DNA of 62,833 bases from Promethearchaeia archaeon (GCA_029856105.1 JAHQWH010000009.1:1-62833); one strand, 5' to 3'; numbered from the stretch's first letter, positions 15,323-60,670 are shown. The notes: generated from the letters alone by a model not told the origin. Made by a program: numbers and translations.

Positions 15323-15828
15323 TTATGATTCGGTTTGATTTATCCGTATTATTTTTTTAATCATTTTTTCGATATTTTTATCAATTATTTTAAGAACTTT
15401 CTGATAAGTCTTAGTACTGGCGTAATATGGATCTATTATATCTAAATCATCAGTTTCTCCGTTAAATTCTTTTAAAGTAAACAATTTTTTGCTGAAGTCG
15501 TTAACCCCTTGATAATTTTCTCTAATATCATTAACATGTGACTTTTCCATCGTTATGATTAAGTCTTGTTTTTCTAACAATTTTCGATTGATTATTTGCG
15601 GTTGAAAATCAGAGTGTTTAATGCCTTTAGAATTTAAATATTCTTGAGATTCGGGTTGCATGTAAGAAAATGCATTTATAAAACCAGCGCTCTCAAAAGT
15701 TAAATTAACATCATATTTCTTGGCGTAATCTCGTGCTAAGTATTCAGCGGGGGGGCTCCTTGCTGTATATCTGTTGTTTTTTAAACAATTCCAGTACAAA
15801 CAAAGAGAACAAATTTGATTCTTTGCAT
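15323..15828 (-). CDS. LMW protein phosphatase interrupted by a 20-nt BHB intron; join(15789..15828, 15323..15768), 161 aa, MQRIKFVLFVCTGNTARSPPAEY...
   Basis: True ATG at 15828 gives FVLFVCTG then a stop; removing 15769-15788 restores CTGNTAR (CX5R) and a length equal to the neighbouring paralog. Confidence 0.85.
15769..15788 (-). other. Putative mRNA intron, 20 nt (UUGUUUAAAAAACAACAGAU), relaxed bulge-helix-bulge
   Basis: Outer helix UUGUA/UACAG, bulge AU^A, central CUGG/ACAG (one G.A), bulge AA^U, inner stem UGUUU/AAACA. Confidence 0.75.
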
Positions 15829-15921
15829 AATTCTTTTAGTATAATTAGCAAAATATCTTAAATTTTTCTATAATTAGATTGATCAGCTAGTCGAATTTCA
15901 CGAGTAAAACAAAATTCTTGT

Positions 15922-16152
15922 TTATTTTTTTAGTGTTTTCTTTAGCTCATCTATTTGTAGTTCTAATTTAGATTTTTCTATTTGACAAGCATTTAGTTGA
16001 TTCTGGAGCTTTTGTATTTCTCCTACAACTTTATTTGAGTTCAAAAGAGTATCATATAACTGAGTCTTTAATTTTTTCACATCTAGTTCAAGATTTTTTA
16101 TATATTGCTCATCATTTGGTTCATATGGCCATTCTTCTGACATGCTTTTCAC
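15922..16152 (-). CDS. Small coiled-coil hypothetical protein
   Basis: Heptad-rich 76 aa ORF co-oriented with neighbours. Confidence 0.6.
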   Translation of the reverse strand: MKSMSEEWPYEPNDEQYIKNLELDVKKLKTQLYDTLLNSNKVVGEIQKLQNQLNACQIEKSKLELQIDELKKTLKK

Positions 16153-16202
16153 ATAGTTTTATTTTTAATTTTATTATTAGAACTATTCATATTAGAGAAT
16201 TT

Positions 16203-16889
16203 TTATTTGAGAGAGACCTTTTGCGTTTCTGGGTTTCGCACAAAATACCCGGTTGTGCCACATTCTTGACATACTTGGGTATTATCATCAAGAAATACCA
16301 TAGATTTCTTAAAACACATGGGACAGATGAAATGAATAAGCTCTTGTTCATTCTTAGAGAATTCTTTTATCATTTCAATCTTGGGCGTTATTGGAGTCTG
16401 AATACAAAACATACAAAAACAGCGTCTTTTCGTATCTTCAAGGATATCATTCAATTCGTTTAGATTTGCATCGCATTCCACCGTTAATTCCAATTTAAAG
16501 TTTTCCACCGCATCAATCCCATCCTCAATCCCAAAACCAGTTGTTAGGTCAATGTCCGCAATAATTCTTATATCAAGTCGTTTTAATTCTATTTTACGCA
16601 TTGCTGCCCATTTGGCAAAAGCAGCAGAGAAGCAACCAGCAAAACCAGCCAAACAATAGTGCACTGGATGAACAGCAGTACCTCCGCCCCCAAGAATAAT
16701 AGTTTCGTCTGTTTGCACTGTTATTTCACCCGCTCTTTCTGTTTTTAATTTTACTTCGAATTGTGGTCCATAATCTACTTCTAATCTCCATTTACCATTT
16801 ATTTCTAAAGCCTTTTTACATTTTGATCGATCTTTGCGGTATGTATCTTGTACTTTCTTGAATCCCTCTACATCAATTCTGTTTAACAT
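16203..16889 (-). CDS. OsmC/Ohr family protein with C-terminal zinc ribbon
   Basis: DETIILGGGGTAVHPVHYCLAGFAGC, RRC; tail CPMC...CQECG. Confidence 0.85.
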   Translation of the reverse strand: MLNRIDVEGFKKVQDTYRKDRSKCKKALEINGKWRLEVDYGPQFEVKLKTERAGEITVQTDETIILGGGGTAVHPVHYCLAGFAGCFSAAFAKWAAMRKIELKRLDIRIIADIDLTTGFGIEDGIDAVENFKLELTVECDANLNELNDILEDTKRRCFCMFCIQTPITPKIEMIKEFSKNEQELIHFICPMCFKKSMVFLDDNTQVCQECGTTGYFVRNPETQKVSLK

Positions 16890-16901
16890 AGATTTCCCTC
16901 A

Positions 16902-17435
16902 TTATAAGACTTCTTTATACATAGAATATAATTTTTCTATTATCGCCTTAAATGCATTGCCTACTCCATTTCCTGTTTTTGCAGATGTTCTGTATACTCC
17001 TAAATAATCTTCTTTCGCACTTAATTCCTCAAAACTACTTTCATCTATTTCAGTATCTCCAACTAAATCTGTTTTATTTGCGAATATTATAATTGGGATA
17101 TCTTCGCAATACTGATTGATTTCATTATACCATTTCATAACATTCTTTAAGCTTTCATTTCCCTTATTATTTCGTTCTAATGAATAAACTATTATTACTG
17201 CTTTACTATCCTCATAGAACGAGGAACGAATGATTTGGAAATCATCTTGACCAGCTAGATCCCAGAAGAAAAGCTTAATATCATCTCCATTTATCTTTTG
17301 TTCATAAATAGAAAATTGAGCTCCGATTGTAGAGATATAATCTTCTTGAAATTCTCCTTGAGTATACTTTTTAATAAGGGAGGTTTTTCCTACTCCACCA
17401 TCCCCAATTATCGTTATTTTAAAAACAAATCTCAT
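16902..17435 (-). CDS. Rab-like small GTPase
   Basis: GDGGVGKT, TIG, WDLAGQ, NKTD, SAKTG. Confidence 0.93.
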   Translation of the reverse strand: MRFVFKITIIGDGGVGKTSLIKKYTQGEFQEDYISTIGAQFSIYEQKINGDDIKLFFWDLAGQDDFQIIRSSFYEDSKAVIIVYSLERNNKGNESLKNVMKWYNEINQYCEDIPIIIFANKTDLVGDTEIDESSFEELSAKEDYLGVYRTSAKTGNGVGNAFKAIIEKLYSMYKEVL

Positions 17436-17607
17436 AAAATTCTCTCAATAAATATGATTTAAATGTTAATTTAACTTTGTTCATAAATTCTATATAAAAT
17501 TATCTGCATACAAGTCAAATTTAATAAAACTTATTTACAGAAGTGTAAATTATTAAACCATACAATTAAATTTTCATAAAAATAAGTAATCCTAATGCTG
17601 ATATATT

Positions 17608-19254
17608 ATGAAAAAGAAATCAATTAAAGCGAGATTTATTAATACATTCATTAGAGATGTTAATATCTCTAAAGAATCATTTTTTTATTTGTTTTTAACG
17701 CTATTTGCATTAATCTTAATGGTGGAGGTAACTGTACTCAGATATGTCTTATTAAATGAAATAAGTCCTATGCTAGAATTTGAAATAATCTTAGCCCTCT
17801 TTATAATAGCATTTGGTTTTATTATATCAGGATATTTAGTCGACCGAATAAAGAATAAAACTAAGAATTTTAACATTATATTTATTGTATGTATAGCTGG
17901 TCTATTTTTAAGTACATTTAAAAACACTTTCTTTGATCATTTTGGAATATTGATTGGTCTACTTGGATTAATTCAATTAACTTCTCTGTGGTTTTCTACA
18001 TTGATTCATAACACAACAATATTAAATAGAGGACGGATAACAGCATACTTATTAATACTTTGTATCGGATCAAGCGTAATTAGCATATTTTTCACTTATT
18101 TTGATCTTTTATATAATACTTTTTCCGTATTTATGGCTATTATTTTATTTTTTATTTATAAAAGTTCAAAAAAAAATCAATATTTAGAAAACGAAAAACA
18201 TTTAGAATCAACAACCAAATTTAAGAAAATAATATTTGAAAAACATTTTTTTAGGTATTCTTCTAGTTTCTTCGTTTTAAGTTTTATTTTGGGTGATTTA
18301 GTAGCAAGATTTACGCTTCACATAAATTTATTTATTTTTTCAATAGCAACTATATTATACCTTGTAGCTGCTGGTTACTTTTTAGATAATATCGGGAGAA
18401 AAGTATCACTTGTCCTAGGTATACTTCTTCTTTCATTTTTTCTTATTACTTATGGTTCATATATAGAATCGCCAACTATTTTTGGATTACCTCGGGAAAT
18501 TTTCCTTTCAATACATTATGCCTTTTCGTTAGCACCACTATTATTAGCTATCTTCACGATTTCCGGAGATTTTTCAACTGAAAGAGAGAATATAAGATAC
18601 AGAGGCCGCATTAATGGACTTTTCATTTCTTTAGTATTTTTTGGTGTCATTTTTGGATTTTTCTTCAGTCGCACGTTAAACCTTTTATATTTATTATATC
18701 CTGAATTAAATATTATTATTCCAGATTTTCCAAATAGGTTGAACTCCTTTTTACTGGTAATTTTACTTGTATGGATGATGGCAATGAAAGAAATTTTAAT
18801 TTCTAAAGAAAAAAATTGGTCATCAGCAATAATAAATCTTTATGTTTTTAGCGTTAGTGGGGTTGGGCTTTACTACCATAATTTCAAGAAAAGTGCCCAA
18901 GGGGAAGAAAAAGAGAAGAAGAGAGAGATGGATGAAGATATTATTTCTGGTGCTTTGACAGGTGTTGTAGGAATCATTTCTGAAATTACTCAAAGCAAAA
19001 AACAGTTAAGGAAAATTGACAAGGAGGGTTATGATCTTCTATTCTCTTTTGGAAAATACCATATTGCCTGCTTAATAACAAAAATAGATTTACCAGTGTT
19101 ATTAAAGAAACTTGATGAGTTTTCAAAAGATTTTGAAGTAAAATTCGGGAAGTATCTTAAAAAGTTTGCTGGAAATGTATCCCCCTTTGAAGATACTAAG
19201 TATTTAGTTGAAAAATACTTCAATCAGAAATATTCTGATTTATTTGGGGCATAA
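17608..19254 (+). CDS. Multi-pass (MFS-like) membrane protein fused to a C-terminal longin-like domain
   Basis: About 12 TM segments with GYLVDRI/GYFLDNIGRK loops; C-terminal LYVFSVSGVGLYYHNF...IISGALTGV...FAGNVSPF. Confidence 0.65.
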   Translation: MKKKSIKARFINTFIRDVNISKESFFYLFLTLFALILMVEVTVLRYVLLNEISPMLEFEIILALFIIAFGFIISGYLVDRIKNKTKNFNIIFIVCIAGLFLSTFKNTFFDHFGILIGLLGLIQLTSLWFSTLIHNTTILNRGRITAYLLILCIGSSVISIFFTYFDLLYNTFSVFMAIILFFIYKSSKKNQYLENEKHLESTTKFKKIIFEKHFFRYSSSFFVLSFILGDLVARFTLHINLFIFSIATILYLVAAGYFLDNIGRKVSLVLGILLLSFFLITYGSYIESPTIFGLPREIFLSIHYAFSLAPLLLAIFTISGDFSTERENIRYRGRINGLFISLVFFGVIFGFFFSRTLNLLYLLYPELNIIIPDFPNRLNSFLLVILLVWMMAMKEILISKEKNWSSAIINLYVFSVSGVGLYYHNFKKSAQGEEKEKKREMDEDIISGALTGVVGIISEITQSKKQLRKIDKEGYDLLFSFGKYHIACLITKIDLPVLLKKLDEFSKDFEVKFGKYLKKFAGNVSPFEDTKYLVEKYFNQKYSDLFGA

Positions 19255-19257
19255 ATG

Positions 19258-19752: not shown

Positions 19753-19902
19753 AATCTAAACCATAAAATGTAGACAACCAAAAAAAAATTATTATTCTGT
19801 TCAAAAAGATATATAAAAATAATTTCATTTTGCTATTTTAAGATATTTTGGTAAAAACATGGGGTTTGAAAAAATATTTCGCTAAAACTTAAGACGGGGT
19901 TC

Positions 19903-22342: not shown

Positions 22343-22359
22343 ATGAGTTAAAGAAAATT

Positions 22360-22500: not shown

Positions 22501-22514
22501 ATGAGGAAATAAAT

Positions 22515-48477: not shown

Positions 48478-48489
48478 ACGAGAATAAAA

Positions 48490-49566: not shown

Positions 49567-49658
49567 TAAAAAAACCATTGACTACTTTTTATAAGTCATT
49601 TTTAAAAATTCAAACGGAAAATATATTAAAATTAAAATATTTCATATGGGGTGATTTT

Positions 49659-49814
49659 TTGAGTAAACGAGGGAGAATGGGAGGATCTAAAGCTGCAGGA
49701 CCCGGTGGTAGTTGCAAGTGTCCTAAATGTGGCAAAACTATGAAACATCAAGTGGGCATACCTTGCTCCCAGCAAAATTGTCCAAAATGTGGCACTAAAA
49801 TGGTTAGAAAATAG
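49659..49814 (+). CDS. Small Cys-rich metal-binding protein, 51 aa
   Basis: GGGGTGA SD before TTG at 49659; GPGGSCKCPKCG...PC...CPKCG. Confidence 0.75.
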   Translation: MSKRGRMGGSKAAGPGGSCKCPKCGKTMKHQVGIPCSQQNCPKCGTKMVRK

Positions 49815-50088
49815 GTAGACATTTGTAAGGCTTCAAAATATAAATATTCTCCATTTTTTTTATGTTCATTTTGGAAAATAACATAATAACTTAATTCATA
49901 AAGATTAATTTTTTTATTGTGATAAGATAGGTTAATTGATATTTATTTTTTAATTATTAATTTTACTCAGTTTTTTTATTAAAATTATCATACAATTGAT
50001 AATCTATTTGTATTGGGTAATTTTTTAACTTGGGTAATTTTTTATTTAATCAAGATACTGACTATTAACTTGAGGATTTTTCCAAGAA

Positions 50089-50206
50089 ATGATAATTTCT
50101 TTTCCCCAATATGGGCCCCAAAACTCTATTTACAAGCCTTGGTCTAGATGTAGTTATTCCAGATCCAACGAATCGAGAAGCGATTAAGATTGGGATAAAA
50201 CAATCC
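50089..50206 (+). pseudogene. Degenerate 5' fragment of the 59450 dehydratase-like gene
   Basis: CTATTTACAAGCCTTGGTCTAGATG and TTCCAGATCCAACGAATCGAGAAGCGAT are identical to 59500-59560; carries a +1 frameshift and a 15-nt deletion. Confidence 0.85.
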
Positions 50207-50207
50207 T

Positions 50208-50291
50208 CGAATAGAATCCTTCACTGAAATGATTAAGCGCAAGAAGAGAATGCAAGCTGGAAAAAAGAAAGCGAAAAGAGGCGTGCAATAA
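50208..50291 (+). pseudogene. 3' remnant of another DUF2229-type subunit gene (RIESFTEMIKRKKRMQAGKKKAKRGVQ*)
   Basis: Matches the C-terminal RVESFVEMIRRKK of 48490-49566. Confidence 0.75.
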
Positions 50292-50317
50292 TCGTTTCGT
50301 GCAATAATCCCAACCCT

Positions 50318-52738
50318 GTGTTTGACATGAGCGAAGAAAAACTAGCAATACATAAAAGAAAAGTAGAAGCGATCTCTGAAATGGTTAGAAATGCGTACGA
50401 TAACGCGAAGCCGGGGGAATATTTCTCTCTAAAAAAGGCGAGTGTTTCCCACATGGCTCCACAGCCGGATAACCCGGTCTATAGCGACAAGCCGATAGAC
50501 GTGAGGTCACTTACAGACATTATTGAGATAAACACGGATACAAGGACATGTATTGCAGAAGCAGGGGTTACTTTTGTTAGGCTTGCAAGAGAAACATTAA
50601 AGTATGGGCTCGTACCGCAATGCGTTTCCGAGCTCAAGGGAATCACGATAGGCGGGGCAGTAGCAGGATGTTCAGTTGAATCCATGTCTTTCAAGTATGG
50701 GGGATTTTTCGATTCCTGTGAAGAAATAGAGATTGTGACAGGAACAGGTGACATAATGTTATGCACGAAAAGTGATAACCATGAAATATTCGAGATGCTG
50801 CACGGGAGTTTCGGCACGATTGCAATCATCACGCTCCTGAAGTTCAAGCTCGTTCCAGCAAAAGAGTGCGTCCGCATCGATTACATCCGTTACGATACTT
50901 TTAGTGAATACATGGAAGCTATCAAGCAACACTACGAAAAGCAGGATATTGAAATGATGGACGGGCTTATCTTCTCCGAGAATATGAACGTACTCTGCGT
51001 TGCCAGCTTCGTTGATGAGGAGGAAGCTCCTTACAAGAGTGAATATTTCTACGATATTTATTACAAAAGTGCGATGAAAAAAAAGCGAGACTTCCTCTCC
51101 ACCATAGACTATTTTTTCAGGTATGATGCAGATTGCCACTGGTCGATACGGAATGTTGCTGGAGGAATTTTTGAGAATAAAGTAGTCCGGTGGTTAGTAG
51201 GGCCCTTTATACTTGGATCGACAAATATTCTTAAGATCAGCGAACGATTGCCATTTTTAACTAAGAAGGGGGGAGAACCGGACGTGATTATTGATGTCTT
51301 CATACCAATCACTCACGCGGAAGAATTTTTCAATTGGTACCTGGAGTTATTTGATTACTTCCCGGTTTGGATCGTCCCTTACCGCATGCAAAAAAATAAA
51401 CTAGATGGGTACAAGTTCTACCCGTGGCTCAATCAAGACATGATCGCTCCCATCGAGGATGAGCTATTCATAGATTTTGCCATCTACGGGTTCGAGCAAA
51501 AAAGAAAGGGATTTAACTTCTATAAAGCGCTAGAAGAAAAGGTTCATGAGCTCAGGGGAATGAAAACCTTGATAACTCACAATTTCTACGAGGAAGACCA
51601 GTTCTGGAAGGTATATAACAAGAAATTTTACGATAAAGTGAAAGAACGAACGGATCCCAAGAACCTATTTCGACACTTGTACGAAAAGACGAATTATAAG
51701 AAAAAGACTGAAAAGACGAAAAGACTGAAGGTAGGTATCCCACGTTCCCTGTATTTCTACAAGTATTTTCCATTATGGGAAGGAATGCTTACAAGTCTTG
51801 GTTGCGAAGTTATTGTGAGTCCAGAAACAAACAAAGAAATTCTTACCAACGGATCTAATCAATCTGCAACCGATTTATGCATTCCAGTCAAGATTCATTA
51901 TGGTCATGTGAATTATTTATCGAGAAATCACCCCGATCTAGATTTTATATTTGTTCCAAGACTCATTAGTAAGAGTAATGATCATTATTATTGTCCGAAA
52001 TTCCTGATCCTTCCAGATGTCACTCAACACTCAGCAGTTTCTAATATTCCCGTTATTGAATGGATTTTTAATGCCAGGGAATATTCAATGATGCAATCAG
52101 CAATAGATTTTGGAAAAACATTAGATAAATCAAAAGAAGAATCAAAACTTGCGTATGAGAATGGATATAAAAAACTTGAAGAATTCCATGAGTTGATTGA
52201 GGATGGAATTCTTGTTCCTGATGCACTTTACAAAATGTATCCTTTTGAAAAATATCCAAATTATAAGTTTAAGAAAAGATTTCAACCTAAACTTAACAAA
52301 GATTATGAAAAATATCCACTTTCATTAATGGTTCTTGGTCATCCATACAATACTTATGAATCAATTATTAATCATGGATTAATGGATATTCTCAAAACCA
52401 ATTTTGTTGATGTTGTAACTGTTGAAAATGCTCCAAAGGAAATCTTCTCAAGAAGAGTTGAAATTGATGATAATTTTTGCAATTTCTGGGATAATGAAGA
52501 TGAATTGATTCAATTATCTGATTATGTTATCCATAATGAAGAGATTGATGGGGGTATTTTCTTAATCAGCTTTGCGTGCGGTCCTGATTCTTTAATTCAA
52601 GAATTGGTAATGCAGGATTTTGACATGAAAGATAAGCCTTTTATTAATCTCACATTAGATGAACACACTGGAGAATCTCAAATAACTACAAGAGTAGAAT
52701 CTTTTATCGAAATGATAAGGAGGAAGAAATACAAGTGA
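50318..52738 (+). CDS. Fusion: FAD-binding PCMH oxidoreductase (DHCR24 / TmsA-BfaA-like) + DUF2229-type subunit
   Basis: ELKGITIGGAVAGCSVESMSFKYG, GSFGT, FRYD, DPKNLFRHLYEK; then KVGIPRSL, CIPVK, CPKF, SFACGPD, DEHTGE. Confidence 0.85.
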   Translation: MFDMSEEKLAIHKRKVEAISEMVRNAYDNAKPGEYFSLKKASVSHMAPQPDNPVYSDKPIDVRSLTDIIEINTDTRTCIAEAGVTFVRLARETLKYGLVPQCVSELKGITIGGAVAGCSVESMSFKYGGFFDSCEEIEIVTGTGDIMLCTKSDNHEIFEMLHGSFGTIAIITLLKFKLVPAKECVRIDYIRYDTFSEYMEAIKQHYEKQDIEMMDGLIFSENMNVLCVASFVDEEEAPYKSEYFYDIYYKSAMKKKRDFLSTIDYFFRYDADCHWSIRNVAGGIFENKVVRWLVGPFILGSTNILKISERLPFLTKKGGEPDVIIDVFIPITHAEEFFNWYLELFDYFPVWIVPYRMQKNKLDGYKFYPWLNQDMIAPIEDELFIDFAIYGFEQKRKGFNFYKALEEKVHELRGMKTLITHNFYEEDQFWKVYNKKFYDKVKERTDPKNLFRHLYEKTNYKKKTEKTKRLKVGIPRSLYFYKYFPLWEGMLTSLGCEVIVSPETNKEILTNGSNQSATDLCIPVKIHYGHVNYLSRNHPDLDFIFVPRLISKSNDHYYCPKFLILPDVTQHSAVSNIPVIEWIFNAREYSMMQSAIDFGKTLDKSKEESKLAYENGYKKLEEFHELIEDGILVPDALYKMYPFEKYPNYKFKKRFQPKLNKDYEKYPLSLMVLGHPYNTYESIINHGLMDILKTNFVDVVTVENAPKEIFSRRVEIDDNFCNFWDNEDELIQLSDYVIHNEEIDGGIFLISFACGPDSLIQELVMQDFDMKDKPFINLTLDEHTGESQITTRVESFIEMIRRKKYK

Positions 52739-53766
52739 ATGAACCAGAATTTTTCAAGAATATTCTTTCAGATGATGTGGATGACAAGTTATATCTAGGA
52801 ATCGATGTCGGAAGTGTCTCCACGAAATGTGCAATAATTAATGAGAGAAATGAATTATTGTATGCTACCTGGACCAGAAATGATGGTTCTCCCATTGTTT
52901 CTACACAAGAAAATCTAAAATACATGGAAGAAGTCCTTCCTGATAACATCGAGAGAAATATTTGTGGTGTTGGGACAACAGGTTCTGCTAGGTATTTAAT
53001 AAAAGCTCTTATCGGTGCAGATATAGCAAAACCTGAAATAATTGCTCATGCAATTGGAGCTTCAACTTATACCCCGGATGTAAGGACGATATTAGAAATA
53101 GGGGGACAGGATAGTAAAGTTATCCTAATGAAAAATGGCATCGTAACAGACTTCAACATGAACAGCGTCTGTGCTGCAGGTACAGGATCTTTTCTAGATC
53201 ACCAAGCAGTTCGGATCAAGGTTCCAATTGAAGAATTTGGGGATTATGCTCTTCGGGCAGAAGAGGAGGTTTCAATTGCAGGACGATGCACAGTTTTTGC
53301 CGAATCTGATATGATCAGTAAACAACAAGAAGGATATTCTAAAGAATCAATTATCAAGGGATTGTGTAAAGCTCTTGTTAGAAACTACTTGAATAATGTT
53401 TGCAAGGGTAAAAAAATGTATCCTCCCTTCGTATTCCAGGGAGGAGTTGCAGCAAATTCCGGAATAAAAAATGCTTTTGAAGAAGAATTGGGGTATGAAG
53501 TCATTATTCATGAAAACTATTACGTGATGGGAGCATTTGGTTCAGCCATTTTGGCAAAGGAACATGTAAATGGACAGATATCTTCTTTTCATGGCCTAAA
53601 AGTTAGTGAAATGAACTTGGCTCAAGGTTCATTTGTCTGTCCTGATTGTGCAAATAGATGTACAATTAAATACCTTGTCAGGAAAGAAGATAAAAGTAGA
53701 GTAACTGGAAGAGAAAAGGATGATGCGATATTTGCACGATGGAATAGTAGGTGCGGTAAATGGTAA
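52735..53766 (+). CDS. Acyl-CoA dehydratase activase (BadF/BadG/BcrA/BcrD ATPase, Fe-S)
   Basis: GIDVGSVSTK, TTGSAR, EIGGQDSK, CAAGTG, RCTVFAES, CPDCANRC. Confidence 0.93.
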   Translation: MNEPEFFKNILSDDVDDKLYLGIDVGSVSTKCAIINERNELLYATWTRNDGSPIVSTQENLKYMEEVLPDNIERNICGVGTTGSARYLIKALIGADIAKPEIIAHAIGASTYTPDVRTILEIGGQDSKVILMKNGIVTDFNMNSVCAAGTGSFLDHQAVRIKVPIEEFGDYALRAEEEVSIAGRCTVFAESDMISKQQEGYSKESIIKGLCKALVRNYLNNVCKGKKMYPPFVFQGGVAANSGIKNAFEEELGYEVIIHENYYVMGAFGSAILAKEHVNGQISSFHGLKVSEMNLAQGSFVCPDCANRCTIKYLVRKEDKSRVTGREKDDAIFARWNSRCGKW

Positions 53767-55094
53767 ATGTTAGAGTTTCATTTTCACGAATGGGTTGGAG
53801 CTATATTTTTTTCAAAGGTTTATTCCATGATCTTCCTGGTATTGAAGTTGTTGAACCCCCTCTAGTAAACACTGAAATCGTTAGTGAAGGAGTCAAAGTT
53901 TCTCCTGAATTCGTTTGTTTTCCATTTAAAGTCATTCTTGGTGAAATGATAAACCTTTATCGTAATTATGATGTTAAAGATTTTGCGATGATTGCTGACT
54001 ACGGCCCTTGTCGAGCAGGAATGTATGGTGTTGTCCAGAAAAGAATCCTGAAAAACATGGGATTCAAGGATGTTAGAATGTTTTATCTGCGCCAAGATGA
54101 TTTTCGAACTCTTGAATGGCTAAGGATATTTCGTGATTTAGAAAAAAGAACAGGAAAAAAATTTGATGACTATAAAGTTTTAAGAAACACACTCTTGTTC
54201 TTGGCCAAAGCATACTATGTTGAAAGAATAAGCCATATTGAAGGACTTGTTAGATGTCGAGAAAAAAACAAATCAATGACTACCAAAGTAGTTCATACTT
54301 TGATGAATTTACTTGATAACGAAAATAATTTGATGAAATTATCTAATTTTGATAGAACGATAGATGAAAATTTTCGCAAGATTCCTATTGACAAGGAAAT
54401 GGAACCTTTGAGGGTTTGTTATACTGGGGAAATCCAAGTCATGTTGGAGAAATGGGTTAATTATGATCTGATGGGAGAATTAGGCGTCATGGGTATCGAG
54501 GTTCACAAGCAGTATGATGTCTTTGATTGGGTCATGCACAAACTTAACGCCAGCAAACGAAGAAGACGGCTTGAACATAGTGCAAGAAAGTATATTCCAA
54601 TGGATTGCGGTGGAGAAGCGCAGTGGAACATGGGAAGTTATCTTGAGTCTCAAGAAAAAGGTTTTGATGGTTTTGTCCATATATTCCCATTTACTTGCCT
54701 CCCCGAAATATCCCTCATGGGAATGTTAGAAGCTGAGAAAAACATGGACAAGTTTTACATGCCCCACATTCATATTAGTCTTGATGGAAGTTCTGGTTTT
54801 GAAGGACTTAGAACAAGAATCGAGGCATTTCACGATTTAATGGTTGGCAACAAGAAAACTAATCCCTTGTTTAGAGATGCCAAGTATGTGGTCCCGGATG
54901 AAGTAAAAAATATATATTTTAAGCCGAAATCCAATTTTGAATATTTCCTGTCTAGTATTGAAACCCCCATGTCAAAGGTTTTAACAATGCTGAATCCATC
55001 AAAGAAATTAGATGTAGGATTCACCGTTAAGAATGGACTCGAGTTTTTTTCAAGAAATTCGTTTTTTGGTATCGGATCTCTTTTTAACCTTTGA
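53760..55094 (+). CDS. 2-hydroxyacyl-CoA dehydratase-like / PlsR-like subunit (intron-less paralog of 59450)
   Basis: SPEFVCFPFK, GPCRAG, GEI, GGEAQW, PFTCLPE, TRIEAF. Confidence 0.85.
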   Translation: MVNVRVSFSRMGWSYIFFKGLFHDLPGIEVVEPPLVNTEIVSEGVKVSPEFVCFPFKVILGEMINLYRNYDVKDFAMIADYGPCRAGMYGVVQKRILKNMGFKDVRMFYLRQDDFRTLEWLRIFRDLEKRTGKKFDDYKVLRNTLLFLAKAYYVERISHIEGLVRCREKNKSMTTKVVHTLMNLLDNENNLMKLSNFDRTIDENFRKIPIDKEMEPLRVCYTGEIQVMLEKWVNYDLMGELGVMGIEVHKQYDVFDWVMHKLNASKRRRRLEHSARKYIPMDCGGEAQWNMGSYLESQEKGFDGFVHIFPFTCLPEISLMGMLEAEKNMDKFYMPHIHISLDGSSGFEGLRTRIEAFHDLMVGNKKTNPLFRDAKYVVPDEVKNIYFKPKSNFEYFLSSIETPMSKVLTMLNPSKKLDVGFTVKNGLEFFSRNSFFGIGSLFNL

Positions 55095-55110
55095 GAGGCT
55101 TAAGGCAAAA

Positions 55111-55563
55111 CTACTTTCGCAACGAAAAGTAAACCTTCAACAGCACCAAGCTCCAGAAAACGGTCCAAACGCTAATTATTAAAGGCATAATGTCATTTGC
55201 AGAAATCGAGTAAAGAAATCTCGTAAAGGCATAATAGGTGGCGTAGACGCTGCAAGTAGCAATAAAAATTATCAAAGGGACGATAACAAAAGCTAAATCG
55301 GCTTTAAAGTGTTTTAACTGACTACTTTTAGGTTTTGTTTTTTTACGAGTTGCTAAATTAAGCGTTTTCTTTTTCAAATATTTAACCGTAAAAACTATTC
55401 CAAGCGCGAACAACCCCGATAAAAGGACGGTAAGGAAGAAATAAAACGCTACTAAGGTCGGTTGCTGCTCGAGTAAGACGTTTAAGCATTGGTAAGGCAC
55501 GAAATAGCCGAACGCTAAAAAGCCAAAAACAATGGTAAAAATTACTAGCGGAAAATACAGCAA
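55111..55563 (-). CDS. Four-TM membrane protein, possibly 5'-truncated
   Basis: Hydrophobic segments; overlaps the start of the divergent ORF. Confidence 0.6.
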   Translation of the reverse strand: MLYFPLVIFTIVFGFLAFGYFVPYQCLNVLLEQQPTLVAFYFFLTVLLSGLFALGIVFTVKYLKKKTLNLATRKKTKPKSSQLKHFKADLAFVIVPLIIFIATCSVYATYYAFTRFLYSISANDIMPLIISVWTVFWSLVLLKVYFSLRK

Positions 55564-58500
55564 ATGTTTTAGTTGTATTGATCTTAGTGCAAACCCGATT
55601 CGATTTACTAAGTTGCACGCCCTGCTCGGCGAGCTTACGCTTACGCTTACGGTACCTTTAAACGCGAAGTTAGCGAATATTTTAAACGCTCTTTATTTCG
55701 AGATTCAGCGCGTAGAAAGTGAGCCCGATAGTTCGGGTTGCTCCTATTACGTCGTTTTCCAGTTTAATATCGAGAAGTACCGCTCGATCGACGACCTTCG
55801 AGACCTCACCTCGGAACAGGTAAATAAGATCGCCACCGCGCAAGCGATAGAAGCTTCTATTCTCGAGTACAATTACCAATTTAACCTCGCAGTTCAGACT
55901 CAGATGAGCTACCACGAGCTATTTTACACCGGGATAGTTACGGCTGTATCCACTGCTATTACTATGGGTGCTACTTTAGGCGTCGGAAAGGTAGTTGAAT
56001 TAGCAGGAAGCCTAACAGGTACCGCTGCGAAAGAGTTGAGCAAGTCCGCTTCGAAAACGCTTTTGGGCCTTTTACAACCCACCGCTGGGTTTAGCTCTTG
56101 GGGCGTATTGTATACCGTGGCTAAAGAGATCGGTCAAGAAGTATTAATAGACCCTTGGATCGAGAGCGCGGTTTCTGGAATGGTTAGGCGCGCGGGAGGG
56201 GACGCTATGCTACAGATGGTGCTCAGTTCGGTCGCGGAGAGCTTGAGAGAAACGCTCACCGGACCTTTTACTAACCTATTTAGCTCCCAGCAATCTGAAG
56301 GCGCGTCTTTATACGAGCAACTCGACGCTAAATATTTCTCAAGCGGTTTAAAACCAACGGTCCAAGACGTTCTCACTGTTTTTAACGAGTACAGAACGGA
56401 AATTGAAGTGCAAATAGAACAACATAGAGGTGATCTGAAATTGCTCGGTGGAGCCACGAGAGCTATTAGTTTTGTGTCAATAGCTTTAGGTTTTACCGCT
56501 TCGCAATTTCTCGGACCCATTAGCGCCTTAGTGTACTCAACGCTTGCAACCTATTGCTTCTCAGAAGACATTTCGCTTAAAGACGCGTTCAAGCAAGCTT
56601 TTAGCCCTATTAAAGCGGCTATAAGCAATAGTAAAATCGGAGACTATGTGCAAAACAACAAAAAGAAAGTGTTAGGTCTTGTCGGTATTGGCGCGCTGTC
56701 GGCTACAATGACGGGATTGCAAGTATTATTACCCTCTTTAAACCTTCTCTGGAGCTTTCTACCCGGAGTAGGCGTGCCGATAACGATAGGGATGGTTCAA
56801 AATAAAAAATTAGATTCTAAAGAGGAGATAGTCCATTATAACAGATGGTTAACAGATCGTATAAAGTCTTACTTAGACAACCTTCCTAATAGGATTAATT
56901 ATTTATTTGATCCATATAAAGCTTTTACAAAGATGGGCAGTCTTCTCGGTCAGAAGGATTCTTACTTCCTCGAGCAAAGACGGTTGAAATGGGCTAAGAG
57001 AGTTTTAGCTCAGACAGTACTCGATACTATGAGTTCAAGTTTGAAGCAGAAAATTGAAGAGTGGTCTGGCGAGTTTCCACAATTAGAAGAAGATTTATTC
57101 AAAGTTTACTCTGATCTGATTAGTTTTGTTGACGATTATCAAAGAATCTTAAATCCTAAACCTTCTCCACGGTATCAGATGTATAATCACCATCCAAATT
57201 TCAATAGAAATTTCTTCTCTGAGATTACGACCGCTGAACAAGCATACTGGCTTGGATTTATAGCAGCTGATGGTTATATTAGTGTAGAGCACAAAAAATA
57301 TGGAGATTATTATCGTATGGGCATAGGGATATCTACCAAGGACGAAACTGAATTTGGTCTTTTGACGAAGTTTTGTAAAGCTGTAGGACTAAATCCAAAA
57401 TATATAAGCACTAGACCAGTTCGTTGCGATTTTACGGGGAAAGATAGTTTAATTAGCGAGATAAGATGGGGCGATCAAGAATTTGCTCAAGACCTTATTG
57501 ACCTCGGCATAGAGTATGATTTCGTCGAATCCAAAGGGAGGAGAGTGAAAGTAGCAACATTGCCTGAATTCGCCAGCAGAGAATTAGCTTTAGCTTATCT
57601 TTTAGGATTCTACGATGGAGATGGTTCAAAAGGTTTAAATAGCCAAGATAAGAGTATTTATCCCACAGTTTCTTCTGAAAACAGAGAATTCTTGTATCAA
57701 TTAAAGAATTACTTTGGAATTAAAAGCAAAGTAACAAAAGCTACCGTTGAAAGATATGATCACAGAAGGGATATTATTGTAAGAAGTACCCAGCACAGGC
57801 TCTACTTGGAAATACCTCTCTTTAAAGAAATGATGGAAAATTATGGAAACAGTCTAGAAAGGAAAAGAGAAAAGCTCGAACGACTCGATCATTATGGAGT
57901 GTCTTCCACTCGGTATTTCTTAAGACAAGTTCTTAAAAGGGATTTATTAGAAGCAATGTTAGAGATTATATCTCCTAATAAGATTGGTAAGATTTTAGGC
58001 GTAAAAGGTGAGACAATAGCTAGGTTTGCTCGAGACGAGTATGGGCTTTCAATCCCAAAGACTGCAGGTGAGTATCAATCGATTCAACATTCACTTAGAA
58101 ATTTAAGAGTAGATTCTGAGTATTACGCAGATTATTTCCACTATACAAACTTCCTTGGTGGCTTAAGACGTGGTTCACAGGGATTATTTGGGGATTTTAA
58201 TTTTAGATTACATGAATACTACGATACAGAGTTAATTAAAGAGCTAGTGAGTCAGGGTATCAAAGTCGACGAAACCAAATCGGTAGCTTTCGCTCGAAAT
58301 CGAGGAGTTGTAGATAAAAACGGAAAAGTAATAGAAAATCCTAGAATTATTTGGTTAACGCAGGGAACAGCAAGGAGAGGTCTTGACCATATTTTACTTC
58401 GTCACGGTGAGGGTGGCATCCCAAAGAAGAAATTCAGCACTATTTTTGGTATATCAGACGACGCTGAAACTATTGGCAACTTTATTTTTTACGCTATTAC

Positions 58501-58657
58501 TAAATTTCCAGTTCACTTAAAATTACCAGGAGCTGGGGGACGGTCTACACTTTATGTGTATCAAATTCGGAGAAAAGGTGAAATTAATTATTTGAAAATT
58601 CTAGTAGACGAAGAGGGAGAAATTGTTACGGCATACCCTGATAGGAACGAAAACTAG
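55532..58657 (+). CDS. Polymorphic-toxin-like protein: hydrophobic helical region + two-motif LAGLIDADG domain + C-terminal nuclease-toxin-like tip; N-terminus probably truncated
   Basis: AYWLGFIAADG and AYLLGFYDGDG; tip IIWLTQG...GLDHILLRHG...GEIVTAYP. Confidence 0.7.
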   Translation: MVKITSGKYSKCFSCIDLSANPIRFTKLHALLGELTLTLTVPLNAKLANILNALYFEIQRVESEPDSSGCSYYVVFQFNIEKYRSIDDLRDLTSEQVNKIATAQAIEASILEYNYQFNLAVQTQMSYHELFYTGIVTAVSTAITMGATLGVGKVVELAGSLTGTAAKELSKSASKTLLGLLQPTAGFSSWGVLYTVAKEIGQEVLIDPWIESAVSGMVRRAGGDAMLQMVLSSVAESLRETLTGPFTNLFSSQQSEGASLYEQLDAKYFSSGLKPTVQDVLTVFNEYRTEIEVQIEQHRGDLKLLGGATRAISFVSIALGFTASQFLGPISALVYSTLATYCFSEDISLKDAFKQAFSPIKAAISNSKIGDYVQNNKKKVLGLVGIGALSATMTGLQVLLPSLNLLWSFLPGVGVPITIGMVQNKKLDSKEEIVHYNRWLTDRIKSYLDNLPNRINYLFDPYKAFTKMGSLLGQKDSYFLEQRRLKWAKRVLAQTVLDTMSSSLKQKIEEWSGEFPQLEEDLFKVYSDLISFVDDYQRILNPKPSPRYQMYNHHPNFNRNFFSEITTAEQAYWLGFIAADGYISVEHKKYGDYYRMGIGISTKDETEFGLLTKFCKAVGLNPKYISTRPVRCDFTGKDSLISEIRWGDQEFAQDLIDLGIEYDFVESKGRRVKVATLPEFASRELALAYLLGFYDGDGSKGLNSQDKSIYPTVSSENREFLYQLKNYFGIKSKVTKATVERYDHRRDIIVRSTQHRLYLEIPLFKEMMENYGNSLERKREKLERLDHYGVSSTRYFLRQVLKRDLLEAMLEIISPNKIGKILGVKGETIARFARDEYGLSIPKTAGEYQSIQHSLRNLRVDSEYYADYFHYTNFLGGLRRGSQGLFGDFNFRLHEYYDTELIKELVSQGIKVDETKSVAFARNRGVVDKNGKVIENPRIIWLTQGTARRGLDHILLRHGEGGIPKKKFSTIFGISDDAETIGNFIFYAITKFPVHLKLPGAGGRSTLYVYQIRRKGEINYLKILVDEEGEIVTAYPDRNEN

Positions 58658-58741
58658 AATCCCCACGCACTACCTAAATTTAAATTAGAATTGTTCTTTT
58701 TTTTTATTAATTATTAATTTAATTAGCATTTTTACGGAGTT

Positions 58742-59284
58742 TTGGTTTTGAGGGTATTTGTATCAGATGTTATCGTTAAAAAGGATAAAGATGGCTACGA
58801 TTACTACTGGGTTGTTGGAAACCTTCAGAGTGGGATGGAAGTTATTATCGACGATTATTACTTTGATCTTCGCGAGTGGATAGGTCAAAGCGTTGAAATG
58901 TTGCTGTCATTTTTGCGGTCACCTTACAGCGAGCTCCAGAGAGGTATTTGCAACAAATTATTTTTACCGTTTAAGTATTATTCCGTGGAGCTCATTGACG
59001 AGTTGTTAGAAGAGAAGGGCGTCGTCTCAACCGGCAACGAAAGAGTTGTAATCTTGACTGGTGAATTTATTGATTCCTATGCTATCCCCAAAAAATGGGC
59101 TTCTTTCACTCAACGAGACTTGTTTAGAGTTTTGTACAAGGAACCGTCTGCTCTAAAAACTGAGGACGGAGCGTTCCTTCTATACCCCTTTCATTTGCGA
59201 AAGGCAGTTCCAATAGAGAGATTTCCTCAGGAAGTAACAGTGGCGGGAAGTTTGAATTTAGAAGCCTGGATTCCAAGCCATTGA
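58742..59284 (+). CDS. Hypothetical protein, candidate immunity protein
   Basis: Directly downstream of the toxin tip; GGAG SD before TTG; no recognised family. Confidence 0.55.
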   Translation: MVLRVFVSDVIVKKDKDGYDYYWVVGNLQSGMEVIIDDYYFDLREWIGQSVEMLLSFLRSPYSELQRGICNKLFLPFKYYSVELIDELLEEKGVVSTGNERVVILTGEFIDSYAIPKKWASFTQRDLFRVLYKEPSALKTEDGAFLLYPFHLRKAVPIERFPQEVTVAGSLNLEAWIPSH

Positions 59285-59449
59285 TGTTGGCTTGGTTTTA
59301 ACCTTAACAATCTGAAAGAAACAGACTATTTAGCGAGGGATTTGGAAAATTACTTTTTTATCATACTATTGCGAATCTGTTTGTAATGGGAAAATTTTTA
59401 TTTTAAACTGTGTTATTTGATTAAATACTTAACTAGGTAAAAATACATC

Positions 59450-60670
59450 ATGTTAATATCATTCCCTAACATGGGGCCTAACTGGGTAGCTTTTAAAACG
59501 CTATTTACAAGCCTTGGTCTAGATGTTGTAGTTCCAGATCCAACGAATCGAGAAGCGATAAAGATTGGAGTCAAGTATTCCCCCGAATTCGTGTGCTTCC
59601 CGTTTAAAGCGACTATTGGAGATTTCGTGAATGCTATAGAAAAGGGAGCAGATACGCTAATCATGGCAATAGATTGCGGACCGTGTAGATTTGGCTTTTA
59701 CGCGAGCGTTCAAGAACGCATTTTAAAAGATATGGGTTATAAAGACATTACGGTTATCCCCCTTGACCAAGCAGACCTTTTAGATTTTAAATGGGTCAAA
59801 ACTCTTCAAGAAGTTAGCGGTCGAAAGGATTTATTTATGTATTCAAAATTCGTTAAGGCTGTTATTATTTTTCTAAAGAAAGCTAAACTGTTAAACGATA
59901 TTCAAACTGCCGAAGGTATCTTCCGAGCTTACGAGCGTAATCAAGGAGATACAACGGATTTGATTAAAAACTTATTGGATAAGCTTGATCAAGCTAATAC
60001 GCTCCCAGAATTGAGAAAATTTAAAAGCGTTATTAAGCAAGATTTTAGCAATTTAGATATTGATAAAACCCGAACTCCTCTACGGGTGGGTGTTTCGGGG
60101 GAGATTCACATTAACTTGGAACCCTATGTAAATTTAGATATCCGTAGAAAGCTGGGTGAGATGAACATTGAAGTACACCAAAGCTTGAGCTTATACGATT
60201 GGGTCGTCCATAAATTCCATTTAAATTATCACAGAAAGTGGTTGGAACACCTTTCCCATCCATACATGCCCATGGACATTGGCGGTGAAAGTTTTGAGCT
60301 TTTAGCTTAAAACCATCTTTGCCAATGGGTGTTAGGTGAATATATAGACAAAGCTCAAGCGGGGTTTGATGGCTTCGTTCATCAATATCCGTTCTTATGC
60401 CTCCCCGAAGTGACGGCTCGGACGATTTTAACTAATAAACTTAAGGGAATTTACGATCTTCCCATCATTTACTTCTCTTTCGACGAACAGAGTGGATTAG
60501 GTGGCTTCAGAACTAGGTTAGAAGCATTTTCAGATCTAATGTATGGTCGTAGGAATAAAGAAATTGAAACTAACGCCAAATTCATATCAAATGGTAATAA
60601 AAAGATTTATCCGCATTATGGCAATTTATTTTATAATGAATGCGTTCAATTAATTCAAAATTCGGTTTAA
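59450..60670 (+). CDS. 2-hydroxyacyl-CoA dehydratase-like / PlsR-like subunit interrupted by a 30-nt BHB intron; join(59450..60289, 60320..60670), 396 aa
   Basis: The two track ORFs (59450-60310, 60329-60670) are halves of one protein; the spliced junction PMDIGGE^CQWVLGEY aligns without gaps to paralog PMDCGGEAQWNMGSY. Confidence 0.9.
60290..60319 (+). other. Putative mRNA intron, 30 nt (AGUUUUGAGCUUUUAGCUUAAAACCAUCUU), canonical bulge-helix-bulge
   Basis: Outer helix CAUUGGC/GCCAAUG, bulge UU^U, central GGUG/CAUC, bulge AA^A, inner stem GUUUUGAGC/GCUUAAAAC; contains an in-frame UAA. Confidence 0.9.

What the first reader, a model, noticed from the sequence alone, without database searches (positions are those of the whole stretch)
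15769..60319. Possible genome-wide system of endonuclease-spliced mRNA introns in an Asgard archaeon
Two unrelated micro-introns occur among about 55 genes in one window. Both sit in a conserved motif (CX5R; GGE), both make the unspliced message non-functional, and both have intron-less paralogs nearby. They differ in sequence but share the architecture, so structure rather than sequence is kept. Inference: such introns may be common in this lineage, may explain many split genes in Loki assemblies, and could spread by reverse splicing or act as a splicing-dependent expression switch. That would bear on the ancestry of non-spliceosomal mRNA splicing in eukaryotes. I cannot confirm novelty against the literature.
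Basis: inference. Interest (0 to 1): 0.92.

Follow-up and report, generated by a model that had tools for sequence, protein, structure and literature searches.

The report
tRNA-type mini-introns in Asgard protein genes
Two protein genes of this Loki-type Asgard archaeon are each broken by a 20-30-base insert shaped like the introns that the archaeal tRNA-splicing enzyme removes; comparison with relatives indicates they are cut out of the mRNA, as are similar inserts in other genes of this genus, a form of splicing published for only about two archaeal transcripts.

Summary
Both inserts are real and lie at the stated coordinates. One is 20 nt (15769-15788, minus strand) in the catalytic CX5R loop of a low-molecular-weight phosphatase. 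The other is 30 nt (60290-60319) after the GGE motif of a DUF2229/HgdB-like gene. Each sits in bulge-helix-bulge (BHB) geometry. Cutting after the second base of each 3-nt bulge restores the frame and gives exactly the sequence of intron-less orthologs (GGECQWV; CTGNTARSP).

The same introns occur in other lineages with different lengths (20/21 nt), structure-preserving substitutions and intact exons under purifying selection. The genome encodes an alpha and a beta EndA subunit and the ligase RtcB.

A loose BHB descriptor shows no genome-wide enrichment, because background swamps it. When breaks are defined by homology alone, against a 92%-identical sister genome, 6 of 8 lineage-specific inserts fit the geometry (P 0.0001-0.03) and a mirror-image control does not. 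The single-copy ribosomal protein uL11 gene carries two such introns, and the genus shows three polymorphic uL11 intron positions.

No RNA data were available, so splicing itself is inferred. The held literature documents only cbf5 and one Haloferax 5' UTR. This scan has already flagged the same phenomenon on many other Asgard genomes. Spread by reverse splicing and an expression switch remain untested.

The parts
15789..15828 (-). LMW-PTP exon 1 (ATG 15828; encodes MQRIKFVLFVCTG plus the first base of Asn)
   Evidence: Pfam LMWPc
15769..15788 (-). Intron 1, 20 nt, shifts the frame and contains TAA. Made of the last base of bulge 1, a 5-bp/3-nt-loop hairpin (15775-15787), the central-helix 3' strand ACAG (15771-15774) and the first two bases of bulge 2.
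   Evidence: Boundaries from orthologs; geometry 11/12, P = 0.0003; homologous 21-nt introns in G022 and G010
15323..15768 (-). LMW-PTP exon 2 (…NTARSPPAEY… to the stop)
   Evidence: 96% identical to the G017 ortholog
15791..15807 (-). Exon-1 half of the BHB: outer helix CUCUUUG..UGUA (15807-15795) and central-helix 5' strand CUGG (15794-15791). Bulge 1 is 15790-15788.
15756..15767 (-). Exon-2 half of the outer helix (UACA..CAAGGAG). Bulge 2 is 15770-15768.
59450..60289 (+). DUF2229/HgdB-like (acyl-CoA dehydratase activase-related) exon 1, 280 codons, ending ...PMDIGGE
60290..60319 (+). Intron 2, 30 nt, in frame, TAA at 60308-60310. Inner 9-bp hairpin 60291-60313; central-helix 3' strand CAUC 60314-60317.
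   Evidence: Exactly the 30 nt missing from 8 orthologs; geometry 12/12, P = 0.0001; same intron in a second lineage, L234
60320..60670 (+). Exon 2 (CQWVLGEYIDKAQAGFDGF… to the stop), HGD-D-like C-terminal part
60277..60287 (+). Exon-1 half of the BHB: outer helix CAUUGGC (60277-60283) and central-helix 5' strand GGUG (60284-60287). Bulge 1 is AAA, 60288-60290.
60321..60327 (+). Exon-2 half of the outer helix, GCCAAUG. Bulge 2 is UUU, 60318-60320.
14818..15303 (-). Intron-less LMW-PTP paralog (CYANTCRSP)
53760..55094 (+). Intron-less paralog of the locus-2 gene (…DCGGEAQW…), 41% identical

Best explanation
Both inserts are archaeal bulge-helix-bulge (BHB) introns in pre-mRNA.

Proposed mechanism. 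After transcription, the exon sequence flanking each insert pairs with the insert. This forms outer helix / 4-bp central helix / inner hairpin, with a 3-nt bulge on each strand 3' of the central helix. The heterotetrameric (alpha-beta)2 tRNA-splicing endonuclease EndA cuts after the second base of each bulge. RtcB then joins the exons, and probably circularises the 20- or 30-nt intron. Only the spliced mRNA encodes the active phosphatase (intact CX5R loop) or the full-length 396-aa DUF2229/HgdB-like protein.

The same machinery serves this genome's many tRNA introns and similar mini-introns in other protein genes (uL11 twice, Elf1, an FGGY kinase). Introns are gained and lost quickly within the genus.

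Shown here: the inserts, the geometry, the exact match of the predicted product to intron-less orthologs, conservation with structure-preserving changes, purifying selection on both exons, and the presence of EndA alpha and beta and RtcB.

Inferred: cleavage and ligation in the cell.
For: 1. Geometry at homology-defined boundaries scores 12/12 and 11/12, P = 1e-4 and 3e-4; the mirror control is null-like. The cut rule (between bulge bases 2 and 3) and the BHB definition are from PMC2738675 and PMC4090602.

2. Eight same-genus orthologs lack exactly 60290-60319. G017 reads GGECQWV, which is the predicted spliced product. About 40 LMW-PTP orthologs and paralogs read C-x-G-N-T-A-R-S-P with no insert.

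3. Locus-1 intron in other genomes. The same site is occupied in G022 (21 nt, perfect central helix CUGG/CCAG, in-frame TAA) and in G010 (21 nt, different inner sequence, TAG). Lengths of 20 and 21 nt give the same spliced frame. The three host genes are 61-66% identical in protein, with synonymous sites saturated (pS 0.71-0.78) and pN 0.20-0.24.

4. Locus-2 intron in a second lineage (L234, 89% aa identity).
- 25 of 30 intron bases are identical, although synonymous sites are saturated (pS 0.85-0.89; pN 0.08-0.10 in both exons).
- The closing pair G-C has become A-U, and central CAUC has become CACU with all 4 pairs kept.
- Exon 2 is intact and has no in-frame start codon.

5. Machinery. There are two EndA paralogs: one keeps the catalytic His, and in the other I saw none on reading the sequence by eye. 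RtcB is present. Asgard EndA is reported as the (alpha-beta)2 type with the broad-specificity L1 loop (PMC5829648).

6. Other genes.
- Removing two inserts from the only uL11 gene restores MSKTNKIIVKALVTGGSASGGPPIGPAVGPTGINIKD, which matches intron-less homologs across both junctions.
- The Elf1 intron scores 12/12.
- uL11 intron C in 7 genomes: 96% of cells paired against 27-43% in slid controls, with 2 compensatory pairs.

7. Motif-free census against G017 (1.13 Mb aligned). There are 8 lineage-specific stop-containing or frame-shifting inserts in conserved ORFs. Six fit the geometry (P 1e-4 to 0.027). A tRNA-Lys intron of the same size and shape also differs between the two genomes.
Against: - No RNA evidence. 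No spliced transcript or circular intron was available, and no 100%-identical spliced form was found among public proteins.
- The central helix of locus 1 has only 3 of 4 pairs in this genome (a G-A mismatch).
- Locus 2, changes private to G000: exon 2 has 3 synonymous and 6 non-synonymous codon changes, against 15 and 2 in exon 1 and 20 and 8 in exon 2 of two sister lineages (Fisher p = 0.057). This could mean relaxed constraint downstream of the stop, although 5 of the 6 fall at variable sites.
- Relatives 93-97% identical lack the locus-2 intron, so in this lineage it could be recent.
- A loose BHB descriptor shows no genome-wide excess over the mirror control.
- Two of the 8 census inserts (one G017 gene) do not fit the geometry.
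Confidence: 0.87

Rival explanations
1. The inserts are disabling insertions. Both genes are young pseudogenes, or locus 2 makes a truncated 286-aa protein, and the hairpins resemble BHB motifs by chance.
For: Intron-less paralogs nearby could cover the function. G000-private changes in locus-2 exon 2 are 3 synonymous and 6 non-synonymous, against 15 and 2 in exon 1. Close relatives lack the locus-2 insert. The genome-wide descriptor scan shows no enrichment.
Against: - Chance geometry has P of about 1e-4 at each locus, at boundaries fixed independently by homology.
- The same inserts persist in lineages separated by saturated synonymous divergence, with both exons intact and pN far below pS.
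- The intron is far better conserved than synonymous sites, with pair-preserving changes.
- The same kind of insert sits in the single-copy uL11 gene and in a tRNA-Lys gene, which cannot be dead.
Confidence: 0.06
2. Locus 2 is a split gene: the two halves are translated separately and assemble. The hairpin would be an intercistronic element. This does not apply to locus 1.
For: The insert is in frame and carries a stop. In G000 a GTG lies 3 codons into exon 2, at 60329.
Against: In the second intron-bearing lineage that codon is GTA, and no ATG, GTG or TTG occurs in frame for about 25 codons, yet the residues CQWVLGEYIDKAQAGFDGF are conserved. The break lies inside a conserved motif. The BHB cut reproduces the ortholog sequence to the base.
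Confidence: 0.03
3. Ribosomes bypass the insert during translation (programmed hopping, as in phage T4 gene 60 or the yeast mitochondrial byp elements), without RNA splicing.
For: The inserts are short, contain a hairpin and carry a stop close to the take-off point, a superficial likeness to bypass elements (from my own knowledge of those systems).
Against: There are no matching take-off and landing codons at either locus (GAA...CUU|UGC; GGA A...GAU|AUA). Bypassing does not predict two 3-nt bulges spaced by 4 bp, exon-exon pairing, or covariation in the helices. An insert of the same shape occurs in a tRNA gene.
Confidence: 0.02
4. Assembly or sequencing artefact in a metagenome-assembled genome.
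For: The assembly has redundancy: C26 duplicates the end of C10. Estimated contamination is 6%.
Against: Homologous inserts occur at the same sites in independent assemblies: G022 and G010 for locus 1, and a Logan contig from another run for locus 2.
Confidence: 0.01

Closest known systems
BHB intron in the cbf5 pre-mRNA of Desulfurococcales and Sulfolobales (Watanabe 2002; Yoshinari 2006; Yokobori 2009, PMC2738675)
   Same: A short intron inside a protein-coding sequence. The exon-intron junctions form a BHB, often relaxed. The cut is predicted between the second and third bulge bases. The organisms have a hetero-oligomeric EndA. The intron sits in a catalytic motif codon. Gain and loss are patchy among relatives. 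Gene callers mistake it for a frameshift.
   Different: There, one gene (cbf5) in thermophilic Crenarchaeota, with cDNA confirmation. Here, other genes (LMW-PTP, DUF2229/HgdB-like, uL11, Elf1, FGGY kinase and more) in a mesophilic Asgard genus, up to two introns per gene in this genome, and three polymorphic positions in one gene across the genus. There is no RNA confirmation here.
EndA-processed intron in the 5' UTR of Haloferax volcanii HVO_1309 (Schwarz 2020, PMC7714728, as summarised in PMC10485636)
   Same: An mRNA that is a substrate of the archaeal splicing endonuclease.
   Different: That intron lies in the untranslated leader and is cut by an alpha2 enzyme with strict BHB needs. The ones here interrupt reading frames.
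Archaeal tRNA introns, including multiple and non-canonical ones, and their transposition in Thermoproteales; heavily interrupted Asgard tRNA genes (PMC4090602; bioRxiv 10.64898/2026.10.13.758758)
   Same: The same motif and the same size range, and presumably the same enzymes. In this genome, ARAGORN calls introns in 16 of the 23 tRNA genes it finds (some of these calls look doubtful). A 30-nt tRNA-Lys intron differs between G000 and G017, just as the mRNA introns do.
   Different: The host RNA is a message, so intron length and content interact with the reading frame (stops, frameshifts). The exon half of the motif is also constrained by the protein sequence.
Unconventional cytoplasmic splicing of HAC1/XBP1 mRNA in eukaryotes (Ire1 plus tRNA ligase/RtcB); TSEN-initiated mRNA decay (PMC10485636)
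   Same: Non-spliceosomal, protein-catalysed removal of a short mRNA intron defined by RNA structure. Ligation uses the tRNA ligase (RtcB in metazoa).
   Different: The endonuclease (Ire1) and the motif (paired stem-loops) are different, and that splicing is regulated by stress. No homology or regulation is shown here.

Membership tests
Archaeal hBHBh' intron (substrate of splicing endonuclease EndA) | 4-bp central helix flanked by two 3-nt bulges on opposite strands, each bulge 3' of its central strand | tested here: met
   Locus 2: GGUG/CAUC (4/4, one G-U), bulges AAA and UUU. Locus 1: CUGG/ACAG (3/4) in G000 and CUGG/CCAG (4/4) in G022, bulges AAU and AUA. Definition from PMC4090602.
Archaeal hBHBh' intron (substrate of splicing endonuclease EndA) | Flanking helices: outer (exon-exon) and inner (intron) | tested here: met
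   Locus 2: outer 7 bp, inner 9 bp. Locus 1: outer 4 bp plus 7 more after a 1-nt bulge, inner 5 bp.
Archaeal hBHBh' intron (substrate of splicing endonuclease EndA) | Cutting between bulge bases 2 and 3 yields the functional RNA | tested here: met
   The predicted products equal the intron-less ortholog sequences (GGECQWV; CTGNTARSP). Rule from PMC2738675.
Archaeal hBHBh' intron (substrate of splicing endonuclease EndA) | Structure conserved by covariation among homologous introns | tested here: met
   Locus 2 against L234: G-C to A-U at the closing pair, and the central strand changed with all pairs kept. uL11 intron C: 96% paired, 2 compensatory pairs, slid controls 27-43%. Samples are small.
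Archaeal hBHBh' intron (substrate of splicing endonuclease EndA) | Host encodes EndA and an RNA ligase (RtcB) | tested here: met
   PF01974 on C107 and C12, both over the cut-off; PF01139 on C191. One EndA keeps the catalytic His and in the other I saw none, by eye.
Archaeal hBHBh' intron (substrate of splicing endonuclease EndA) | Spliced exons and excised (circular) intron observed in RNA | not testable with these tools
   No transcriptome of this organism is on hand. Public protein searches gave no spliced form 100% identical to G000.
cbf5-type pre-mRNA intron (orthologous intron family) | Located in cbf5 at the catalytic Asp codon | tested here: not met
   The host genes are an LMW-PTP and a DUF2229/HgdB-like gene. 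It works like the cbf5 intron but is not that intron.
Programmed translational bypass element | Matching take-off and landing codons flanking the gap | tested here: not met
   No matching codons at either locus.
Miniature transposable element / repeat insertion | Multiple related copies, terminal inverted repeats with target-site duplication | tested here: not met
   Each of 12 intron sequences is unique in G000 plus 2.2 Mb of G017, apart from the assembly duplicate on C26 and the Elf1 intron at its orthologous site in G017, and the introns are unrelated to one another. No duplicated flank appears at the junctions.

The most novel reading that the evidence does not exclude
Mini-introns are actively proliferating in the protein genes of this Asgard genus.

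- Two genomes only about 8% apart in DNA differ by at least 8 coding-region introns per 1.1 Mb compared.
- One ribosomal protein gene shows three polymorphic intron sites across the genus.
- Junctions are confined to invariant G/C-rich motif codons.

This would imply an ongoing mechanism of intron gain (reverse action of EndA/RtcB followed by reverse transcription, or recombination that drags flanking exon along) and of precise loss. It would be a prokaryotic model of intron invasion in the closest relatives of eukaryotes.
Probability: 0.3. Interest if true: 0.9.

Novelty: new variant of a known kind. Interest (0 to 1): 0.75.

Why it matters
In the papers I could search, splicing of archaeal messages by the tRNA endonuclease is confirmed for cbf5 and for one Haloferax leader. 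A 2023 review says more cases probably remain to be found (PMC10485636).

Here the same mechanism appears to serve many genes of an Asgard lineage, including a ribosomal protein gene that the cell cannot do without. It also turns over quickly between close relatives. Three consequences follow.

1. Gene calls in Promethearchaeota genomes are systematically wrong at these sites. Examples are the truncated uL11 calls, and enzymes annotated as split or frameshifted. This distorts metabolic and phylogenomic inference.
2. Expression of these genes depends on EndA and RtcB, which opens the possibility of control at the splicing step.
3. It offers a tractable case of intron gain and loss in the prokaryotic group closest to eukaryotes. 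No link to spliceosomal introns is shown.

Tried and rejected
1. Genome-wide BHB descriptor scans, both strands, introns up to 100 nt. I tried a strict version (outer 5, central 4, inner 4 pairs) and a relaxed version (central at least 3 pairs with at least 2 G-C, outer 4, inner 3).
- Counts were 4619 true against 4716 mirror-image, and 7356 against 7256.
- No excess appeared after adding ORF-rescue filters, shifted-cut controls or a compact-hairpin filter.
- In a 32% GC genome the background swamps a few dozen true sites. This is a limit of the descriptor, not evidence of absence.

2. Paralog-based check of descriptor hits (tblastn of spliced peptides against the same genome). It gave 6 true against 4 mirror hits, too few to be useful.

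3. Rfam and ARAGORN on the window found nothing.

4. Looking for repeat families among the introns found none.

5. Looking for RNA-derived, exactly spliced copies among public proteins for locus 2 and uL11. Only intron-less relatives at 97% identity or less, and intron-bearing truncated calls, turned up.

6. radA-like gene on C45.

Both were rerun in reduced form.
Full report
**What is there**

The window is contig C10 of a 3.66-Mb, 32% GC metagenome-assembled genome. Its closest named relatives are Promethearchaeota (Loki-type Asgard) MAGs, including Loki_b31. The finding's start and end are the outer coordinates of two short inserts.

Locus 1 lies on the minus strand.
- A low-molecular-weight phosphotyrosine phosphatase gene (Pfam LMWPc) begins at ATG 15828 and reads MQRIKFVLFVCTG.
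- It meets TAA inside a 20-nt insert (15769-15788). The rest of the protein (…TARSPPAEY…) continues in another frame.
- Deleting the 20 nt gives CTGNTARSP, an intact CX5R loop.
- The neighbouring paralog 14818-15303 is uninterrupted.

Locus 2 lies on the plus strand.
- A DUF2229/HGD-D ("acyl-CoA dehydratase activase-related") gene, 59450-60670, has an in-frame TAA at 60308-60310.
- It carries 30 nt more than its paralog 53760-55094 (GGEAQW).

**Geometry**

An archaeal BHB is a 4-bp helix flanked by two 3-nt bulges (PMC4090602). The endonuclease cuts between the second and third bulge bases (PMC2738675).

Locus 2 folds as follows:
- outer helix CAUUGGC/GCCAAUG (7 bp)
- central helix GGUG/CAUC
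- bulges AA|A and UU|U
- inner hairpin of 9 bp.

The cuts remove 60290-60319 and join GGUGAA to UGCCAAUGG, giving GGE-CQW.

Locus 1 folds as follows:
- outer helix UGUA/UACA, plus 7 further pairs after a 1-nt bulge
- central helix CUGG/ACAG (3 of 4 pairs)
- bulges AA|U and AU|A
- inner hairpin of 5 bp with a 3-nt loop.

The cuts remove exactly the 20 nt required by homology.

Minimum-free-energy folds give long hairpins built from the same helices (z = -4.3 and -2.5). I then fixed the boundaries by homology alone and scored 4 central, 4 outer and 4 inner pairs.

| Locus | True geometry | P vs 20,000 random pseudo-inserts | Mirror-image geometry |
|---|---|---|---|
| Locus 2 | 12/12 | 1e-4 | 3 |
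| Locus 1 | 11/12 | 3e-4 | 6 |

The null mean is 5.2 with sd 1.7.

**Relatives, locus 2**

Eight same-genus orthologs (78-94% aa identity over the full protein) have open frames of about 400 aa and lack exactly the 30 nt. G017 reads GGECQWV, identical to the predicted spliced product.

A public 286-aa protein (P0027) led to a contig from another sequencing run (L234) whose gene is 89% identical and carries the same intron.
- 25 of 30 intron bases are identical, although synonymous sites between the two genes are saturated (pS 0.85 in exon 1, 0.89 in exon 2). pN is only 0.08 and 0.10.
- The closing pair of the inner helix has changed from G-C to A-U.
- The central 3' strand has changed from CAUC to CACU, which still pairs at all four positions with GGUG.
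- One inner pair is lost.
- Exon 2 is intact in that lineage. The GTG that might serve as a restart in G000 is GTA there, with no other in-frame start for about 25 codons. That argues against a two-polypeptide split gene.

One weak counter-signal exists. Among codon changes private to G000, exon 1 has 15 synonymous and 2 non-synonymous, while exon 2 has 3 and 6. Two sister lineages show 20 and 8 in exon 2 (Fisher p = 0.057). Five of the six non-synonymous changes fall at variable columns, and all conserved motifs are kept.

**Relatives, locus 1**

Of about 45 orthologs and paralogs examined, three carry an insert at this site.

| Genome | Insert | Notes |
|---|---|---|
| G000 | 20 nt | central helix 3 of 4 pairs |
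| G022 | 21 nt | nearly the same sequence with one extra C, which makes the central helix a perfect CUGG/CCAG; in-frame TAA |
| G010 | 21 nt | different inner sequence; TAG |

- G006, the close sister of G022, has the same exon sequence without an insert.
- Lengths that differ by one base, yet splice to the same frame, are what is expected of a removed intron and not of translated sequence.
- The three intron-bearing genes are 61-66% identical in protein, with saturated synonymous sites and pN 0.20-0.24. They have therefore stayed under purifying selection.
- The G000 gene is a recombinant. Its 3' exon is 96% identical to G017. Its 5' exon, intron and upstream region resemble the G022/G006/G010 type instead. 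The alignment to G017 breaks at 15771/15772.
- This suggests the intron can travel with flanking exon by recombination. That is an inference.

**Machinery**

The genome has two EndA homologs of about 200 aa. One keeps the catalytic His, and in the other I saw none (read by eye). It also has RtcB. This fits the (alpha-beta)2 enzyme with the broad-specificity L1 loop reported for Asgard archaea (PMC5829648). ARAGORN finds only 23 tRNA genes and calls introns in 16 of them, some of which look doubtful.

**Is it genome-wide?**

A loose descriptor cannot show it. True and mirror-image geometries give equal counts with every filter I tried.

I therefore made a motif-free census. I fetched 2.2 Mb of the sister genome G017 (about 92% nt identity), aligned 1.13 Mb of G000 to it, and listed indels of at least 12 nt. 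Apart from ordinary in-frame indels and divergent tracts, a distinct class stood out: inserts of 29-31 nt with stops or frameshifts, inside otherwise perfectly conserved ORFs.

| Genome | Gene | Insert | Junction |
|---|---|---|---|
| G000 | locus 2 (DUF2229/HgdB-like) | 30 nt | GGE\|CQW |
| G000 | FGGY kinase | 30 nt | TNQ\|RET |
| G017 | NadE | 30 nt | KYGD\|GGVD (G000 reading; G017 reads SGVD) |
| G017 | FwdB-like | 29 nt | CPF\|CG |
| G017 | PFK-like | 30 nt | IGGD\|DT |
| G017 | thiolase-like | 29 and 31 nt | two inserts |

- Six of the eight mRNA inserts, counting locus 1, fit the geometry at homology-defined boundaries: scores of 9-12 and P from 1e-4 to 0.027. The mirror scores were 2-6.
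- The two thiolase inserts do not fit in a strict register.
- A 30-nt tRNA-Lys intron of the same shape also differs between the two genomes.

Following leads from earlier notes of this scan, I verified three more introns in G000.
- Removing C16:9747-9778 and 9829-9857 from the only uL11 gene restores a canonical N-terminus. It matches intron-less homologs across both junctions.
- Elf1 (C191:74089-74120) scores 12/12 and regains its CPNC zinc-ribbon motif.

Across the genus, uL11 has three intron positions with patchy presence. The other genera of the order that I searched have none. For position C, 96% of cells pair, against 27-43% in slid controls, with two compensatory pairs.

The public gene call for G000 uL11 starts inside an intron, and many public Promethearchaeota uL11 calls are 119-142 aa.

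**Why conserved motifs?**

The exon strand of the central helix is G/C-rich in every verified case (GGUG, CUGG, AACC, CCGU, GUGG, AGGG, GCAU, CCAA) in a 32% GC genome. My inference is that introns survive where invariant Gly, Pro, Cys or Ala codons supply a stable, unchanging half of the motif. The cbf5 intron likewise sits at a catalytic codon (PMC2738675).

**Known or new**

The held literature documents EndA-dependent mRNA splicing for cbf5 in some Crenarchaeota and for the HVO_1309 leader in Haloferax. Other cases were only "predicted" (PMC2738675, PMC10485636). A 2026 preprint treats Asgard tRNA introns only.

The mechanism is therefore a known kind. Its spread over many genes in an Asgard genus, its rapid turnover, and more than one intron per gene form a new variant.

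This scan has already noted the same thing on many other Asgard genomes. Two follow-ups report RNA-level support elsewhere. I did not check those.

**Limits**

Splicing is inferred and not observed. The census covered 31% of the genome and only differences from one relative. Counts per genome (at least 6 verified in G000) are lower bounds.

Noticed in passing
window 53749-62833 and G000:C26: Contig C26 (9085 nt) is a 99.98% reverse-complement duplicate of the end of this window.
   Followed up: yes
window 15772-18099: This 2.3-kb segment, which lies upstream of the LMW-PTP gene in the gene's orientation, has no counterpart in sister genome G017. The alignment breaks exactly at the 3' flank of the intron. 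The gene is a recombinant of a G022/G010-like 5' part, carrying the intron, and a G017-like 3' part.
   Followed up: partly
window 50099-50212 (+): A 43-aa fragment 84% identical to the N-terminus of the locus-2 protein lies just upstream of the 806-aa FAD-binding/DUF2229/HGD-D fusion ORF. It is probably a remnant copy.
   Followed up: no
window 46792-62780: A cluster of three paralogous sets of DUF2229/HgdB-like genes, two of them with BcrAD/BadFG-type activase ATPases, together with acyltransferase-domain genes (the last ORF judged by eye).
   Followed up: no
window 55532-58657 (+): A 1041-aa ORF with two LAGLIDADG-like motifs, seen by eye in the translation. It may contain a homing-endonuclease or intein-like module.
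   Followed up: no
G000:C121:3090-3119 (-): The tRNA-Lys gene carries a 30-nt BHB intron that is absent from the G017 ortholog. It has the same size and shape as the mRNA introns. ARAGORN finds only 23 tRNA genes in the genome and calls introns in 16.
   Followed up: partly
G017:C45 about 14270-14400 (minus strand; loci): A thiolase-like gene in G017 has two stop-containing hairpin inserts (31 and 29 nt, summing to 60) that are absent from G000:C17. One has a perfect central helix but a 2-nt 3' bulge. The other fits no frame-restoring BHB register.
   Followed up: partly
G000:C16:9697-10255 (+): The public gene call for uL11 of this genome (P0248, 141 aa) begins MEIESISYAN, inside intron C. 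Many public Promethearchaeota uL11 entries are truncated to 119-142 aa.
   Followed up: yes
G000:C45:30694-31248 (-): A RadA-like gene matches the Rad51 model only to position 196 of 244.
   Followed up: partly
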